A stretch of DNA of 64,000 nt from Octopus vulgaris (lineage: Eukaryota). The DNA is taken from positions 67,456,001 to 67,520,000 of the forward strand of contig OX597820.1 of assembly GCA_951406725.2 (NCBI GenBank). Direction: 5' to 3'. This document shows, piece after piece, positions 753 through 52,640 of this stretch. Both the position numbers and the translations under genes were made by a program. Under the pieces are notes generated by a model that was not told where the DNA came from, did no database searches, and worked only from the letters and a program-made list of their open reading frames with translations. The first letter of the stretch is position 1; every line of letters begins with the position of its first letter.

Positions 753-1311
753 AAAATTAACTTTTAATTTTAGCACTCAAATGAATTTATTTGTTTTGTG
801 TCATTTCATTTTTGAGCAATCACGAATTTACTCGCATTGTTGTACACTTGGCAGCACATATTCTGGTGCAATTTCAAAGAGTTTATGCTTCTGAGTTTTG
901 AACTTTTACTTCAGTGCATACTCAGATTCAGGAGGAAGTTGATGTCATTTTAGAACCGTCTCGTTTTGATTCTCTTTTATTTATTCAAATAAGAGAATTA
1001 TTTATGCACGAAACCAGGGAGACCATCATCGATCCCACATGCCCAAGTTGGTTACTTTCCCATGGAAATACCACCAATTGATAAGAAAAAGAACCCTACA
1101 AGATAGTGTGCAAAATGCGCAGAGAAGAGAGACGCTAAAGGAAAGAATATACATGTGTGATGTCTGCAAGATAACTGTGTAACTCCTTGTTTTAAAAATT
1201 ATCTTTCTAAATAAACTGTCTATCTCATTTTTTAAAAAGTTTCCTTTGATTTGGAAGCAATACATCTTATAAAATGTCCGAGTTAGCTCGTTTAAATCCA
1301 AATGAGTAAAT

Positions 1312-1490
1312 CTCTCTCTATATAAATGGCAAAATGTCTGTGTGTGTGTGTATCCTTTATACAAATCCACAATTTTTCAGTTCGAGGGCTCGCACTTTCT
1401 ATGGTCATTCAAAACCGTCCAAGGGTAGTCGTGCACATCTTTACATTTCCCCAGTCACCCAGCAAAGCCATTAAAAAAAATCAATAGAAG
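1312..1490 (+). mobile_element. Helitron/DINE-1-like non-autonomous element 5' end
   Basis: Starts TCTCTCTATATAAA, followed by TGTCTGTGTG microsatellite, an architecture typical of HINE/DINE-1-like elements. Confidence 0.4.
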
Positions 1491-1499
1491 TGGTATTTA

Positions 1500-2037
1500 A
1501 AGTGATGGCAACTTTATGCCTCCATTCATCTTCCCACACAGCCTCAGACTCAGCATGAAGGCCTAGATCAAGTGTCTGGTGGGGTGGCTGCTGGAAGACT
1601 ATGTCTAGCAAGACTCTGCACCATGCCACATAAGCAGGAGAACCCAGTCTTGGTTGTCAGACAATTTCTGCGACCACATCACCCCTAACAGCTGGCCACC
1701 TAACTCCCCAGATTGCAACACCCTTGATTACTATGTGTGGAGCACAGTTGAGTGAGAGGCCAACAAAACTCCTTGTAACACCAAAGATGAACTGAAGGCA
1801 AGGATTATGGCAGCATTTACCAACTTAAACACAGAGACTATCCAGAAGTATTGCAGGAGACTCCAAAGTCATCTTGAGATCATAGTTAAAGCCAATGGTG
1901 ATTTCATTAAATAAATTTACTCTTTAGTATTTCAAGATATTTTAATGCAATTTTGGTAAATATATCTCTTAAGATTAGATTGCAGAGTTATTTTCATTTT
2001 TGCATATTTTAGACAACAATTTATTCACTGCACCCTG
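1500..2037 (+). mobile_element. maT (DD37D) Tc1/mariner transposon relic, 3' part
   Basis: Frame from ~1600: QDSAPCHISRRTQSWLSDNFCDHITPNSWPPNSPDCNTLDYYVWSTVE*...KANGDFIK*. 37 residues between the last two catalytic Asp, internal stops, end CACCCTG|TA. Confidence 0.85.
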
Positions 2038-2286
2038 TATGTATATGCATATATATATACACACAGACATTATGTATAAAAATATTTTTCAATGTGCTTT
2101 ACCTTTTTTTTTTAAGACAGTAGGGTTTGATTTGATATTTGGTTACTAATGAGCCACCTACGAAAGCATGTTTCATTGTTTAGTACAGGAACTCGCAGTA
2201 CATAGAAGAGATAGGTGTATTATTTATGGTGATTAATCAAATATTTCAGATAAAAAGGCACAAACAATTAATACAAATAAAAATTA

Positions 2287-2292
2287 TTTAAT
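2287..2292 (-). terminator. Candidate polyadenylation signal (ATTAAA) of MRPL15
   Basis: TTTAAT on + = ATTAAA on -, about 75 nt downstream of the stop, followed by T-rich sequence on the transcribed strand. Confidence 0.4.
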
Positions 2293-2364
2293 GCTAAAAT
2301 ATAAACAAGAATTCTCAGTCTTTCAAAACACATCATCCAATAATGATACTAATTACATTAATGG

Positions 2365-2823
2365 TTAAGATTGGTAAAAATTTTCATATTCTGGATCTGT
2401 AGCTTTATATATTACTTTGTCGTTTAGGTTAACAATCCAGCCGGGTTGTAAATTGAAGAAAACTTGACGAGGATCTTTGCTTTGTAACATTAAATTTTTG
2501 GTATCTTCATCAACTTCTGGTATTGTGTAACCATATTTCTGAGCAAGTTCTATGCGTGCTTCTTGTACAAGATCAGGATCAGCAAGATAGCCACGGTTTT
2601 TTGGATTGGTATAGTATTCCACGCAATCTTGTGTTGGTAAATGACATCGTGGAATGGGTTTCCCTGACTGGAAAAATTTCTTGATATCAGCCAAGGCTAA
2701 CAGTGACATAGGATCATAATAACGAGTTGTAATTCTGCCACCATTTCTCTCAATTGCAGCGATAGTCAGCTCACTAGCCCACTGGACTTCTATGTTGATA
2801 CAGCTCTTGAAACCATCAGCTCC
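2365..2823 (-). CDS. MRPL15: MRPL15 coding exon 4 (terminal)
   Basis: Acceptor ctcattgacag|GGA; 459 nt; GADGFKSCINIEVQWASELTIAAIERNGGRITTRYYDP...YYTNPKNRGYLADP...KDPRQVFFNLQPGWIVNL...FYQS-stop. Spliced CDS totals 882 nt = 293 aa + stop. Confidence 0.97.
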   Translation of the reverse strand, partial: GADGFKSCINIEVQWASELTIAAIERNGGRITTRYYDPMSLLALADIKKFFQSGKPIPRCHLPTQDCVEYYTNPKNRGYLADPDLVQEARIELAQKYGYTIPEVDEDTKNLMLQSKDPRQVFFNLQPGWIVNLNDKVIYKATDPEYENFYQS

Positions 2824-3924
2824 CTGTCAATGAGATAAGAAAAGGGGGGAAAAATAAAGATATTTGCATATTCATCATCGTAATTTTAATTTCCACTTTT
2901 CCATGCTTGCATGGGTCAGACGGAGTTTATTGAAGTAGGTTTCGTAAAGCCAGATGCCCTTTCTGTTACCAAGCAAGGTAATATTTCCCTGTGGCCAGAC
3001 ATGATTTTACAGAATATTGGAATGATATTAATCTACAACAATCATCTGATATCAAGACAAGAAGACAAACATACACATGCAACAGGCTTCTTACAGTTTC
3101 CATTCTACTAAATCCACTCAGAAGACACCACCCAAGGTGCTATGTACTGAGACTGAACCTGGAACCATGTGGTTGGGAAGCAAGCTACTTACCACACAAC
3201 CACATCTGCATCTAATATTGTGAAAAATTTAAGCAATGAATGTAGATTAATAGCGAGTTGAGAGTGAGCTTAGCCTAATCTCTGTAGGATGTGCAACGTT
3301 AATTACAAGAAATTCTAGAGTTGACAATGTTATGGCTTTTAAAATATTGACCTCTGTAAACAGGCCTAAGCAATATGTGGTCTTGAGACTCCTCAAGGAG
3401 GATAGTAACTTCCATAAGGGCTTCTTTATGTCAAACTGTTCAACCCATGTCATAAACACACATGCATGTGCGCACGCACGCACACACAAAATAAGCTTCT
3501 GCACATTTTCCTTCTATCGTATTCCCTACAGTAGGAGACACTGGCCCACGGTGCTGTGCAGTAGCAAACTTGTTAGCCCCTAGGCTATGGCCGCATCTCA
3601 TATAGTTACGAAAACCAACTACACGTTACATGTTAGGTGAAACAGTGATCAAAGATGATATTGGAAGACGACTATAAAAGCATCATCATTTAACGTCTGT
3701 TGTCCATGCTAGCATGGGTTGGATGGTTTGACCAGGGCTGGTAAGCTGAGGGGCTGCACCAGACTCCAGGGCATGGTTTTCCACAGCTGGATGCCTTTTC
3801 TAACGCCAACCACTCTGAGAGTGAAATGGGTGCCAATTTATGTGACACTGGTATCTGCCATGACTGTGATTTTGCTTGGCTTGATGGGTCTTCTTCTCAA
3901 GCACGACATAATGCCAAATGTCAT

Positions 3925-29595: not shown

Positions 29596-29796
29596 ATACA
29601 AAAATAAATATAAGAGAGTGGTCACTATATGGCTCACTCTAGCACTAGTAAATCCAAAAGGTTTCAACCACAAAAATACATGTTTCCCATGAAAGTCAGT
29701 ACGGGGAAACATGTATTTTTGTGGTTGAAACCTTTTGGATTTACTAGTGCTAGAGTGAGCCATATAGTGACCACTCTCTTATATTTATTTTTGTAT
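29596..29796. repeat. Perfect 93-bp inverted repeat with 15-nt spacer
   Basis: 29596-29688 is the exact reverse complement of 29704-29796 (read by eye). Confidence 0.92.
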
Positions 29797-43082: not shown

Positions 43083-43224
43083 ATATACATACATACATAC
43101 ATACATACAAGCAAACATACATATAAGAGGGAATTTTTTTTGTTTGTGTGTTAAAGTTACCATTGGTTTCATAATCTTAGCAATTTTTCAAACATACATC
43201 TATAGATAGATAGATAGAATGTTA

Positions 43225-43500
43225 AAGGTGCGTGGCTTAGTGGTTAGGGCATTCAGCTCACGATCGTCAGGCCGTGAGTTCAATTCCCGGCGACGTGTTG
43301 TGTCCTTGAGCAAGACACTTTATTTTCCGTTGTTCCAGTTCATTCAGCTGGCAAAGTATTGCTTGTATTTCAAAGGGCCAGCTTTGTCACACTCTGTGTC
43401 ACGCTGAATCTGTCTGAGAACTACGTTAAGGGTACACGTGTCTGTGGAGTGCTCAGCCACTTGCACGTTAATTTCACGAGCAAGCTGTTCCGTTGATCGT
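43225..43500 (+). mobile_element. CORE-like tRNA SINE
   Basis: TGGCTTAGTGG A box, GTTCAATTCC B box, GTGTCCTTGAGCAAGACACTT core. Confidence 0.85.
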
Positions 43501-43512
43501 GTATATATATAT

Positions 43513-44190
43513 AAACATAAATAATTTTAGGGTAATAAGAATTATAGAAATTATTATTACCAGTGGCTTAGAACAAAAAATTAGTCAATAGACTATATAC
43601 TATTCACATAAAAATATCGTGTACAATAAAACACATCAAGAGGCTTCCAAATAGGAAAGCCTTGTGCTAGAAAGAGCAGTAGAAAACTCAAACCACTAAT
43701 TAGGAATAAATTCTCGAAAGGAATGAAAATTAAAAACATTTACCATCTAATTTAGTTCCTAGACCATGGTTTCTGACTAATTTCAGTAAAAAAATATTTA
43801 CTGAGGCCAGTCTTCATCAGTAGGTAGCCTTTAGATTTTAAATATACACGCAACGAGATGCGCATGTTAACTCGTTGCCTGTATATTCTAACCTTTCAAA
43901 TCCACTGCGCAGATGCAGTTTATTTCCGGCGACAGAGAGGATGCCGGTAAAACTTCGAACAAATTTATCAAAAAATATTTAAACATAATAAATAATATTA
44001 GGGTAATAAGAATTATAGAAATTATTATTACCAGTGGCCTAGCACAAAAAAATTAGTCAATATATATATTATTCACATAAAAATATCGTGTACATTAAAA
44101 CACATTAAGCGGCTTCCAAATAGGCTTTCATATTTGGAAGCCTCTTAAAGTGTTTAGAAAAGTTAGAATATACAGGCAACGAGTTTACAT
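43513..44190 (-). mobile_element. Penelope/retrozyme-like partial tandem around the HHR
   Basis: ~143-bp direct repeats 43513-43655 and 43981-44124 (period ~468 bp), plus a short inverted copy 44162-44186 of 43864-43892. Confidence 0.6.
43758..43824 (-). ncRNA. Type I hammerhead ribozyme with intact catalytic core
   Basis: CCTA-CTGATGA-A-GACTGGccTCAGTAAAtatttTTTACTGAaaTTAGTC-A-GAAA-CCATGG-TC-TAGG: stem I CCTA/TAGG, long stem II, palindromic stem III ACCATGGT, GUC site. Confidence 0.8.
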
Positions 44191-44611
44191 TTATATTTTT
44201 TATTTTATAAAATATTATATATTTTAAAGTTTATATTTTTTCTATTTTCTTTAACATGAAACCAATGGTAACTTTAACACACACATAAAGAAATTCTATC
44301 CACCAATGCAGTGTTGAGCACTTATTTTCATCGTTCAACACACACACACACACACACAGAGGTGTGTGTGTGTATACGCGTTTGTGTACAAGCATACATA
44401 CACACACATATGTATTTCAAGACAACGAAATAATATTAGTGAGATCTGTTGTTGGTCACAGCGAAAATCTGGAGCATGAGACCACACCATGGTGCCTGCC
44501 TACAGACAGGTGGCACGAACAAATTTATGCAAACCTAGGTAGTAGACATACAAACGTGCCAATTTTACCTATTTCTCTGTAGACAGAAAAAAAAAGCAAA
44601 ACTAAATAACA

Positions 44612-44785: not shown

Positions 44786-45204
44786 TATTTTTTTTATTAC
44801 CCACAAGGGGCTAAACATAGAGGGGACAAACAAGGACAGACAAAAGTATTAAGTCGATTACATCGACCCCAGTGCGTAACTGGTACTTATTTAATCGACT
44901 CCGAAAGGATGAAAGGCAAAGTCGACCTCGGCGGAATTTGATCTCAGAACGTAGCGGCAGACGAAATACCTATTTCTTTATTACCCACAAGGGGCTAAAC
45001 ACAGAGGGGACAAACAAGGACAGACAAAGGTATTAAGTCGATTACATCGACCCCAGTGCGTAACTGGTACTTATTTAATCGACCCCCGAAAGGATGAAAG
45101 GCAAAGTCGACCTCGGCGGAATTTGATCTCAGAACGTAGCGGCGGACGAAATACCGCTAAGCATTTCGCCCGACGTGCTAACGTTTCTGCCAGCTCGCCG
45201 TCTT
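44786..45204 (-). mobile_element. SINE B dimer with a single 15-bp TSD pair
   Basis: One head plus two ~180-bp bodies; TCTTCATTTGATATC at 44771-44785 and 45206-45220. Confidence 0.9.
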
Positions 45205-51889: not shown

Positions 51890-52640
51890 TCAACGCGAGA
51901 CCAGTGAACAGAAAAATACGAAGGCATCTGATCCAAACAGACGATGGAGACGAGTGTACTCTTTAGAGGAAAAGGTAGAAATGATCAAGAAAATACGTGA
52001 CGATGTATCGCGAGTTTGATGTCAATGAATCTACCATTCATTCCATTTTAGGGCGACGAGCGTTGTGAGTTCAAATTCCGCCAAGGTCGACTTTGCCTTT
52101 CATCCTTTCGGGGTCGATAAATTAAGTACCAGTTACGCACTGGGGTCGATGTAATCGACTTAATACCTGTCTGTCCTTGTTTGTCCCCTCTATGTTTAGC
52201 CCCTTGTGGGTAATAAAGAAATAGGTATTTCATCTGTCGCTACGTTCTGAGTTCAAATTCCGCCAAGGTCGACTTTGCCTTTCATCCTTTCGGGGTCGAT
52301 TAAATAAGTACTAGTTACGCACTGGGGTCGATGTAATCGACTTAATCCATCTGTATGTCCTTGTTTGTCTCCTCTGTGTTTAGCCCCTTGTGGGTAATAA
52401 GGAAATAAGGTATTTCGTCTGCCGCTACGTTCTGAGTTCAAATTCCACCGAGGTCGACTATGCCTTTCATCCTTTCGGGGTCGATAAATTAAGTATCAGT
52501 TACGCACTGGGGTCGATGTAATCGACTTAATCCCTTTGTCTGTACTTGTTTGTCCCCCTCTATGTTTAGTCCTTTGTTGGCAATAAAGAAATAAGAATCT
52601 ACCATTCATTCTATTTACTAACAACATGGAAATGATTCCT
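51890..52640 (+). pseudogene. pogo/Tigger (CENP-B-type HTH) transposase N-terminal relic, interrupted by a SINE B trimer
   Basis: RRWRRVYSLEEKVEMIKK...(frameshift)REFDVNESTIHSI, matching the R..LTLEEK..II...IAR.FGVNESTI..I pattern. Confidence 0.65.
52050..52594 (+). mobile_element. SINE B trimer with TSD
   Basis: Three ~183-bp bodies after one shortened head; GAATCTACCATTCATTC at 52027-52043 and 52595-52611. Confidence 0.9.

What the first reader, a model, noticed from the sequence alone, without database searches (positions are those of the whole stretch)
43513..44298. Intact-core hammerhead inside a ~468-bp partial tandem (retrozyme-like)
Seen: the best-preserved HHR (43758-43824, -; all core nucleotides, GUC site, 4-bp stem I, ACCAUGGU stem III; only an A-A pair at the base of stem II is non-canonical). 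It lies between ~143-bp direct repeats (43513-43655, 43981-44124), followed by local inversions. The block is further bracketed by an inverted pair (43130-43172 / 44256-44297) carrying GAAACCAATGGTA, another HHR 3' half. Established: non-LTR retrozymes are 150-400+ nt tandem units with minimal HHRs that yield circular RNAs. Inference: a ~1.3-unit insertion of a circular-RNA retroelement.
Basis: partly seen in the sequence, partly recalled or inferred. Interest (0 to 1): 0.75.

Follow-up and report, generated by a model that had tools for sequence, protein, structure and literature searches.

The report
Penelope-spread hammerhead retrozyme, nested insertion
This is one decayed copy of a widely scattered 469-base non-coding repeat with a predicted self-cutting RNA motif, a known kind of genomic parasite, whose copies end at two fixed points in TA repeats, so a borrowed Penelope-type retrotransposon enzyme likely pasted them in, probably from a small RNA circle.

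Summary
A type I hammerhead lies at 43758-43824 (-) inside a 1.3-unit partial tandem of a 469-nt non-coding unit. It is one copy of a dispersed, aged family (over 1,000 first-look candidates; median 4.6% from the majority). Stems I and II covary across subfamilies, and the A-A closing pair is the family norm (65 of 71), not decay. Copies are not randomly permuted: 5' ends vary, 3' ends fall at two sites about 90 nt apart and run into (TA)n. Back-to-back arms pair one site with the other in 30 of 31 loci, as 2 of 2 two-armed autonomous Penelope-like elements (PLEs) examined here do. Repeats within a locus share subfamily letters (258 of 271), so one template or source was read more than once. 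No arm reaches two units. One locus fuses the repeat directly to a PLE fragment. The bracketing inverted pair is a second, older U3-A8 hammerhead family into which this copy is nested. Verdict: a variant non-LTR retrozyme mobilised by PLE machinery; cleavage and circularity untested. The scan noted this footprint before in sister families (359-533 nt) on other DNA, not this family.

The parts
43507..44124 (-). Main arm of the element: 618 nt, unit positions u321 to u469, then u1 to u469 (1.3 units of a 469-nt unit; u1 = 43975). 3' end of class B.
   Evidence: 1.9% from the family majority at scored sites
43758..43824 (-). Type I minimal-style hammerhead: 4-bp stem I, long two-part stem II closed by A-A, palindromic stem III; predicted cut after C17 (43762 = u214)
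   Evidence: covariation
43507..43655 (-). Downstream copy of the terminal redundancy (u321-u469); holds priming site A (u352-390) and ends at priming site B
43975..44124 (-). Upstream copy of the terminal redundancy (second round of copying, 5'-truncated at u321, inside a hairpin)
43502..43512 (.). (TA)n target remnant at the 3' end
   Evidence: sequence; 84 of 104 A/B ends run into (TA)4+
44122..44190 (+). Rearranged inverted partner arm: u314-347 joined to u76-112
43135..43191 (-). Short arm of an older second family: U3-A8 hammerhead (core UUGAAAA at 43191-43185, stem II internally deleted, 3' half at 43170-43158)
44233..44340 (+). Long arm of the same second family: 3' side of stem II, hammerhead 3' half, fixed 3' end on a microsatellite; its 5' core is missing here
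43223..43500 (+). Unrelated multi-copy SINE-like repeat lying between the arms of the second family; cut short at 43500, where the element's TA end begins
   Evidence: other window copies continue past this point; the SINE label is my inference from tRNA-like boxes, not from a call

Best explanation
A protein-free, hammerhead-bearing retroelement (non-LTR retrozyme) with a 469-nt unit, likely copied into (TA)n targets by the reverse transcriptase and GIY-YIG endonuclease of a Penelope-like element. Shown by sequence: unit, copy anatomy, two fixed 3' ends, A+B arm pairing, read-through of the unit, one template lineage per locus. Inferred: the PLE protein nicks both strands of a TA repeat and primes cDNA at two internal RNA sites (A, u352-390; B, u455-469), one per strand; the two cDNAs stop at variable points and join back-to-back, often through a few shared bases. 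Inferred with less certainty (about 0.55): the template is a unit-length circle made by dimeric, probably weak, hammerhead cleavage and host ligation, so an arm can run more than once round; the window's direct repeats are 1.3 rounds of one B-primed arm. This copy then decayed; it landed inside an older insertion of a second hammerhead family.
For: Multi-copy and dispersed: 1,269-3,028 first-look candidates per query, 40 scored each; 206 exact matches to the core pattern, control 0. 3' ends: 104 of 120 distinct places end in class A (42) or B (62), windows covering 15% of the unit and set; with the hammerhead-only query, 26 of 29 places. 84 of 104 such ends run into (TA)4+, against 1 of 16 other ends. 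45 back-to-back arm pairs, 0 convergent; of 31 with both ends classed, 30 are A+B, 1 B+B, 0 A+A (P 1.5e-8 against 0.5). Autonomous PLEs are present: 148 GIY-YIG matches, 16 in 781-aa open frames, with RT and GIY-YIG domains (RVT_1 just under its cut-off); 2 of 2 two-armed PLE loci examined also have one long and one short end on (TA)n, 30-40 nt apart. L162: a B arm faces a short arm ending at u346-354 fused within a few bases to a PLE endonuclease fragment, its hammerhead-bearing 3' end and (TA)n. Same template per locus: subfamily-diagnostic letters agree in 91 of 95 tandem and 167 of 176 inverted site pairs, 35 and 67 disagreements expected for random templates; no recurring upstream/downstream differences (138 differences, 128 distinct). 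For a circle: 37 arms reach one unit or more; 29 of 36 arms that reach the cut site run through it, 81 of 91 by hand count; the stop rate is 1.4 per kb at 300-400 nt and 12.8 per kb at 400-469 nt of arm length, alike for A arms (13.3) and B arms (12.4) that lie 90 nt apart on the unit; circular fold z -6.0. Hammerhead fold under selection: 35 cells with double changes, 0 of 500 shuffles as high, in 23 rows. PAc primes at two internal sites, cuts AT-rich DNA and extends both strands (PMC11167929).
Against: No autonomous PLE with DNA homology to the unit in 40 GIY-YIG loci (36 places), so the partner is unnamed. 0 of 37 arms of one unit or more reach two units (longest 794 nt); the 2 arms spanning two hammerheads each have a damaged one, so no present source of monomers was found. 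L033's two hammerheads differ at 3 linked diagnostic sites, two of them a compensated pair: there the template was not one circle read twice. The A-B offset (about 90 nt) is longer than the 30-40-nt PLE tail. A-A closes stem II in 65 of 71 copies where G10.1-C11.1 is reported as highly conserved (PMC4209133). The stop-rate bins rest on 3 and 11 events and were chosen after the fact. L162 could be a later PLE insertion into the TA at an A end; PLE fragments lie near 3 of 120 places of this family and 2 of 47 loci of the second family, so nearness alone is not enriched. PAc inserts without hammerhead cleavage.
Confidence: 0.78

Rival explanations
1. Same PLE machinery, but the template is a linear, largely uncleaved read-through RNA from tandem copies (or successive template jumps between sister RNAs); the hammerhead is weak or needs protein, and no circle is required.
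For: A-A closing pair in 65 of 71 copies; no arm of two units in 37; L033 holds two different hammerhead versions in one arm; PAc uses unprocessed RNA; 8 of 9 Xenopus retrozyme dimers did not cleave in vitro (bioRxiv 10.64898/2026.07.22.740005).
Against: No long array among the 40 scored candidates of a 798-nt two-hammerhead query; no recurring polarised differences between rounds; the stop rate follows arm length rather than unit position (B arms stop in u1-70 at 6 per 483 nt, A arms of 300-400 nt, which cross it, at 2 per 944 nt, small numbers); compensatory changes keep stems I-III and the core.
Confidence: 0.35
2. The unit is merely the pseudo-LTR of a still unfound autonomous PLE, and the copies are short 5'-truncated PLE insertions.
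For: All insertion features are those of PLEs (PMC8557442); the hammerhead has the PLE minimal architecture (PMC4209133); pLTR origin of retrozymes is proposed.
Against: Arms that run upstream past u1 continue into u469 of the same unit, not into an ORF; no ORF over 48 aa inside the unit; no homology to 36 PLE places. A pLTR may be the distant origin, but the moving unit was non-coding.
Confidence: 0.08
3. A local DNA duplication or a composite element bounded by the inverted pair (MITE-like), with a chance hammerhead.
For: The inverted pair does bracket the block.
Against: The inverted pair is a separate family whose own loci show the same short-arm/long-arm form; none of the other fetched family copies is bracketed that way (one distant partial match in 29 other loci); descriptor chance 0 of 200; covariation.
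Confidence: 0.02

Closest known systems
Metazoan non-LTR retrozymes (Cervera & de la Pena 2020, PMC7229834, passages seen; Li, Clavereau & Pollet 2026, bioRxiv 10.64898/2026.07.22.740005, parts 1-3 of 5 read, supplements closed)
   Same: Non-coding low-GC unit (32%) of a few hundred bases, type I hammerhead, partial tandems, strong predicted self-pairing, co-occurrence with PLEs.
   Different: Dispersed copies under two units instead of arrays; unit slightly above the 150-450 bp range of the 2020 paper; minimal-style hammerhead with A-A closing stem II; expression and cleavage untested; two fixed priming sites and A+B arms are not in the passages and parts seen.
EN+ Penelope-like elements: pLTR partial tandems, inverted 5'-truncated partner, tail at one end, (TA)n bias (Craig et al. 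2021, PMC8557442, passages seen); PAc internal priming (Frangieh et al. 2024, PMC11167929, parts 1-2 of 4 read)
   Same: 5' truncation, back-to-back inverted arm, extension at only one end, TA targets, two internal priming sites downstream of the hammerhead.
   Different: No ORF; offset between the sites about 90 nt rather than 30-40; no sequence homology to the PLEs sampled.
Minimal hammerheads of PLEs (Cervera & de la Pena 2014, PMC4209133, parts 1-2 of 4 read)
   Same: Short helix I, long helix II, small palindromic helix III suited to dimers; the U3-A8 variant they report matches the second family and the PLEs here.
   Different: Position 10.1-11.1 is A-A (or G10.1-C11.1 with an extra A on both sides) in the main subfamilies; G-C, G-U and A-U in diverged ones.

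Membership tests
Non-LTR retrozyme | Type I hammerhead in the unit | tested here: met
   no Rfam hit
Non-LTR retrozyme | Short, low-GC, non-coding unit | tested here: met
   469 nt, GC 32%; longest ORF inside 48 aa
Non-LTR retrozyme | Head-to-tail repetition of the unit | tested here: met
   37 arms of one unit or more, in register
Non-LTR retrozyme | [quoted passage not shown] | tested here: not met
   window copy has one; 2 arms span two, each with one damaged; none reaches two units. Only the best 40 candidates per search were scored, so arrays elsewhere are not excluded
Non-LTR retrozyme | Highly self-paired circular fold | tested here: met
   -118 kcal/mol, z -6.0 against 60 shuffles; a prediction
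Non-LTR retrozyme | Self-cleavage | not testable with these tools
   indirect only: six arms start at u214-215, five of them with C17 itself
Non-LTR retrozyme | Expressed as linear and circular monomer RNA | not testable with these tools
   only assembled contigs were available
Non-LTR retrozyme | No true LTRs with fixed ends | tested here: met
   5' ends spread over the whole unit, so the direct repeats vary in length
Autonomous EN+ PLE | ORF with RT and GIY-YIG | tested here: not met
Autonomous EN+ PLE | Unit homologous to a pLTR | tested here: inconclusive
   no homology in 36 PLE places; 6,136 candidates existed, 150 scored
PLE-mobilised element | 5' truncation, inverted partner arm, extension at one end only, TA target | tested here: met
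   autonomous comparison
PLE minimal hammerhead | Short helix I, long helix II, palindromic helix III | tested here: met
   intermolecular stem III duplex -11.2 kcal/mol
PLE minimal hammerhead | G10.1-C11.1 directly before G12 | tested here: not met
   A-A in 65 of 71 copies at 84% identity or more; 20 of 23 rows unpaired

The most novel reading that the evidence does not exclude
The copies are a fossil record of a PLE reverse transcriptase running round one ligated RNA circle from two sites at once: it meets its own priming complex after about one turn (the length-dependent jump in stops), pauses at the folded or ligated hammerhead junction (starts at C17), and can switch between PLE RNA and retrozyme RNA in one insertion (L162); the family spread with a detuned A-A hammerhead that keeps circles closed.
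Probability: 0.3. Interest if true: 0.72.

Novelty: new variant of a known kind. Interest (0 to 1): 0.48.

Why it matters
The class is known, and PLE mobilisation and circular templates have been proposed (PMC4209133, PMC7229834, bioRxiv 2026) on co-occurrence and pLTR similarity. This family adds direct genomic footprints and names two RNA priming sites, a predicted roadblock and a natural closing-pair variant that can be tested in the published PAc-type in vitro system. That would bear on two open questions: what moves animal retrozymes, and how PLE tandem/inverted insertions form. The single locus in the window is an old, probably inactive copy.

Tried and rejected
Rfam scan: no hammerhead family at E<=1. 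Family search with a recalled Pfam accession failed as not in the library. Parent PLE: no DNA homology in 36 places. I first judged the inverted pair not to be a hammerhead half because I looked only for a CUGA core (note 1); one search corrected that. I first placed the cut site at u211 (crossing counts); one search corrected it to u214. de-duplicated loci wrongly; counts come (120 places from 180 loci). Snap-back origin of the inverted arm rejected: A arms are not contained in B arms (L008, L044), and 27 of 30 A+B loci copy 30 nt or more of the same unit stretch twice, so it is not L1-type twin priming either. Pile-up of 5' ends at the cut site: 4 of 37 at u214-216, 0.49 expected, but weakly repeated (hand count: 2 of 91 at u214-215, 6 more in u206-212, 1 in u195-205, 1 internal deletion); two of the six loci share one junction; five include C17, which fits a stall at stem III as well as cleavage; not counted as proof. 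Expression: no RNA holder listed on record; contigs of 4 guessed-RNA runs carry family sequence but cannot show level, strand or circularity. L171 fusion to a decayed PLE is ambiguous (fold-back or insertion into a PLE) and not counted. Literature: 4 searches; an octopus repeat annotation holds no 'ribozyme' or 'retrozyme' in its main text (PMC13282606, passages); no paper on an A-A closing pair was listed; supplements were not seen.

Full report
Observation. The minus strand holds a complete type I hammerhead at 43758-43824: stem I CCUA/UAGG, core CUGAUGA, a two-part stem II, GAAA, the palindrome ACCAUGGU as stem III, and C17 at 43762. A descriptor finds it once in 64 kb and in none of 200 local shuffles. 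Rfam has no match and the monomer is not the lowest-energy fold, as expected from established knowledge for motifs with a minimal helix III. The direct repeats (43507-43655 / 43975-44124, 90%), the two small inversions and the outer inverted pair are all present.

Family. The own genome (2.8 Gb, 227 contigs) holds many dispersed copies: 1,269-3,028 first-look candidates per query, of which 40 were scored each time. I mapped 180 fetched loci, 120 distinct places, on a 469-nt unit (u1 = 43975, u469 = 43507). Median distance from the majority is 4.6% over 100 loci, 1.9% for the window copy, so the family is aged. The window copy is one arm of 618 nt, u321 to u469 and again u1 to u469; its direct repeats are simply 1.3 rounds. 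Earlier notes of the scan call this genome a cephalopod; I did not test that.

Ribozyme. An exact core pattern has 206 matches, control 0. In 23 rows from several subfamilies, stem I shows A-U/G-C and U-A/C-G swaps and stem II does likewise: 89% of cells paired, 35 double changes, none of 500 shuffles as high, though the count of covarying pairs (7) is not above shuffles and relatedness inflates such tests. The pattern fixed the core and stem III, so their invariance says nothing. The pair closing stem II is A-A in 65 of 71 close copies and G-C, G-U or A-U in diverged subfamilies. G10.1-C11.1 is reported as highly conserved in PLE minimal hammerheads, which cleave weakly and as dimers (PMC4209133). 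Inference: a folded, selected, probably weak ribozyme.

Insertion footprint. 5' ends spread over the unit. 3' ends fall in two classes, A (u352-390, 42 places) and B (u455-u15, 62 places); 16 end elsewhere. The classes were drawn, and some queries favour them, but the hammerhead-only query gives 26 of 29. 84 of 104 A/B ends run into (TA)4+, 1 of 16 others. 45 loci have two arms joined at their 5' ends, none the other way, 25 with overlapping bases at the joint. Of 31 with both ends classed, 30 are A+B; 14 have an unclassed end. This is the PLE signature: partial tandems, an inverted 5'-truncated partner, a tail at only one end, microsatellite targets (PMC8557442), and two internal priming sites with both strands extended in vitro (PMC11167929). 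The genome has PLEs with open 781-aa RT plus GIY-YIG frames, and both two-armed PLE loci I examined have a long and a short end on (TA)n. None of 36 PLE places shares DNA with the unit. In L162 a B arm faces a short arm ending near site A and fused to a PLE 3' fragment that ends in (TA)n: a chimeric insertion or a later landing on the same target.

Template. At 40 subfamily-diagnostic sites, repeated stretches within a locus agree in 91 of 95 tandem and 167 of 176 inverted comparisons (35 and 67 disagreements expected at random), and rare letters are shared about 50 times more often within than between loci. So both arms and both rounds come from one RNA or one source locus. Most arms cross the cut site (29 of 36; 81 of 91 intact by hand count), so templates were continuous there: ligated circles or uncleaved tandems. 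For a circle: no recurring differences between rounds, no long array among scored candidates, strong circular fold, and a stop rate that jumps from 1.4 to 12.8 per kb as arms near one unit, alike for A and B arms, and stays near 9 per kb beyond (few events, bins chosen afterwards). Against: no arm of two units in 37, no locus with two intact hammerheads, and L033 with two different hammerhead versions in one arm. Six arms start at u214-215, an excess in one sample and weak in another; five include C17, so a stall at stem III explains them as well as cleavage. I put the circle at about 0.55.

Bracketing pair. It belongs to a second family (1,236 candidates) whose hammerhead has a U3-A8 core (252 exact matches, control 0). 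Its own loci show back-to-back arms, a short one ending 19-44 nt after G12 and a long one about 80 nt after. The window's left piece ends at +36 to +39 and the right at about +83, and the left piece scores higher with the right (32) than with any of 19 other copies (22-28). Inference: an old two-armed insertion, later split by a SINE-like repeat and then by this element, which cuts the SINE-like repeat short at 43500.

Verdict. A variant member of the animal non-LTR retrozymes, working like a non-autonomous PLE. It fails the two-complete-hammerheads criterion and the G10.1-C11.1 feature; cleavage and expression are untested. The scan's notes describe the same two-armed footprint in sister families of 359-533 nt; a look-up by sequence and by place found no note on this family. 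Those notes prompted the A+B and same-template tests and are not counted as support.

Noticed in passing
G000-wide; window 43135-43191 and 44233-44340; L241-L270: A second, older high-copy family with a U3-A8 hammerhead (UUGAAAA core, GUA site), fixed 3' ends on microsatellites and two-armed loci; unit length and parent not determined.
   Followed up: partly
L141-L144 (e.g. L141:1745-4087 +): Young PLE family with 781-aa open RT + GIY-YIG frames (16 of 148 matches), an upstream open frame, a 4.8-kb unit and a U3-A8 minimal hammerhead near its 3' end.
   Followed up: partly
L162/L271:1659-2801 and L171/L272:1694-3194: Family pieces fused directly to PLE sequence of other PLE families; the L162 PLE carries its own U3-A8 hammerhead at 2608.
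   Followed up: partly
L033 / L276: Two hammerheads in one arm differ by three subfamily letters in stem II, two of them a compensated pair: a mixed template or a template switch at the ribozyme.
   Followed up: partly
L214 and L274: Two unlinked loci share the same back-to-back junction (u282 with u214), 92% identical, with different flanks.
   Followed up: partly
window 44650-44600 (-): A second loose hammerhead-like match (CUGAUGA, short stem II, 3-bp stem I); fails the stricter descriptor.
   Followed up: no
window 29620-29772: A long near-perfect hairpin (palindromic repeat, sub-threshold MIR2863 match); probably a MITE-like or two-armed repeat.
   Followed up: no
L114, L118, L119, L132: Other long-stem-II minimal hammerheads near PLE loci, from further families.
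   Followed up: no
window 52061-52595 and 44789-45155: 185-bp tandem repeats of a SINE-like sequence (2.9 and 2 copies).
   Followed up: no
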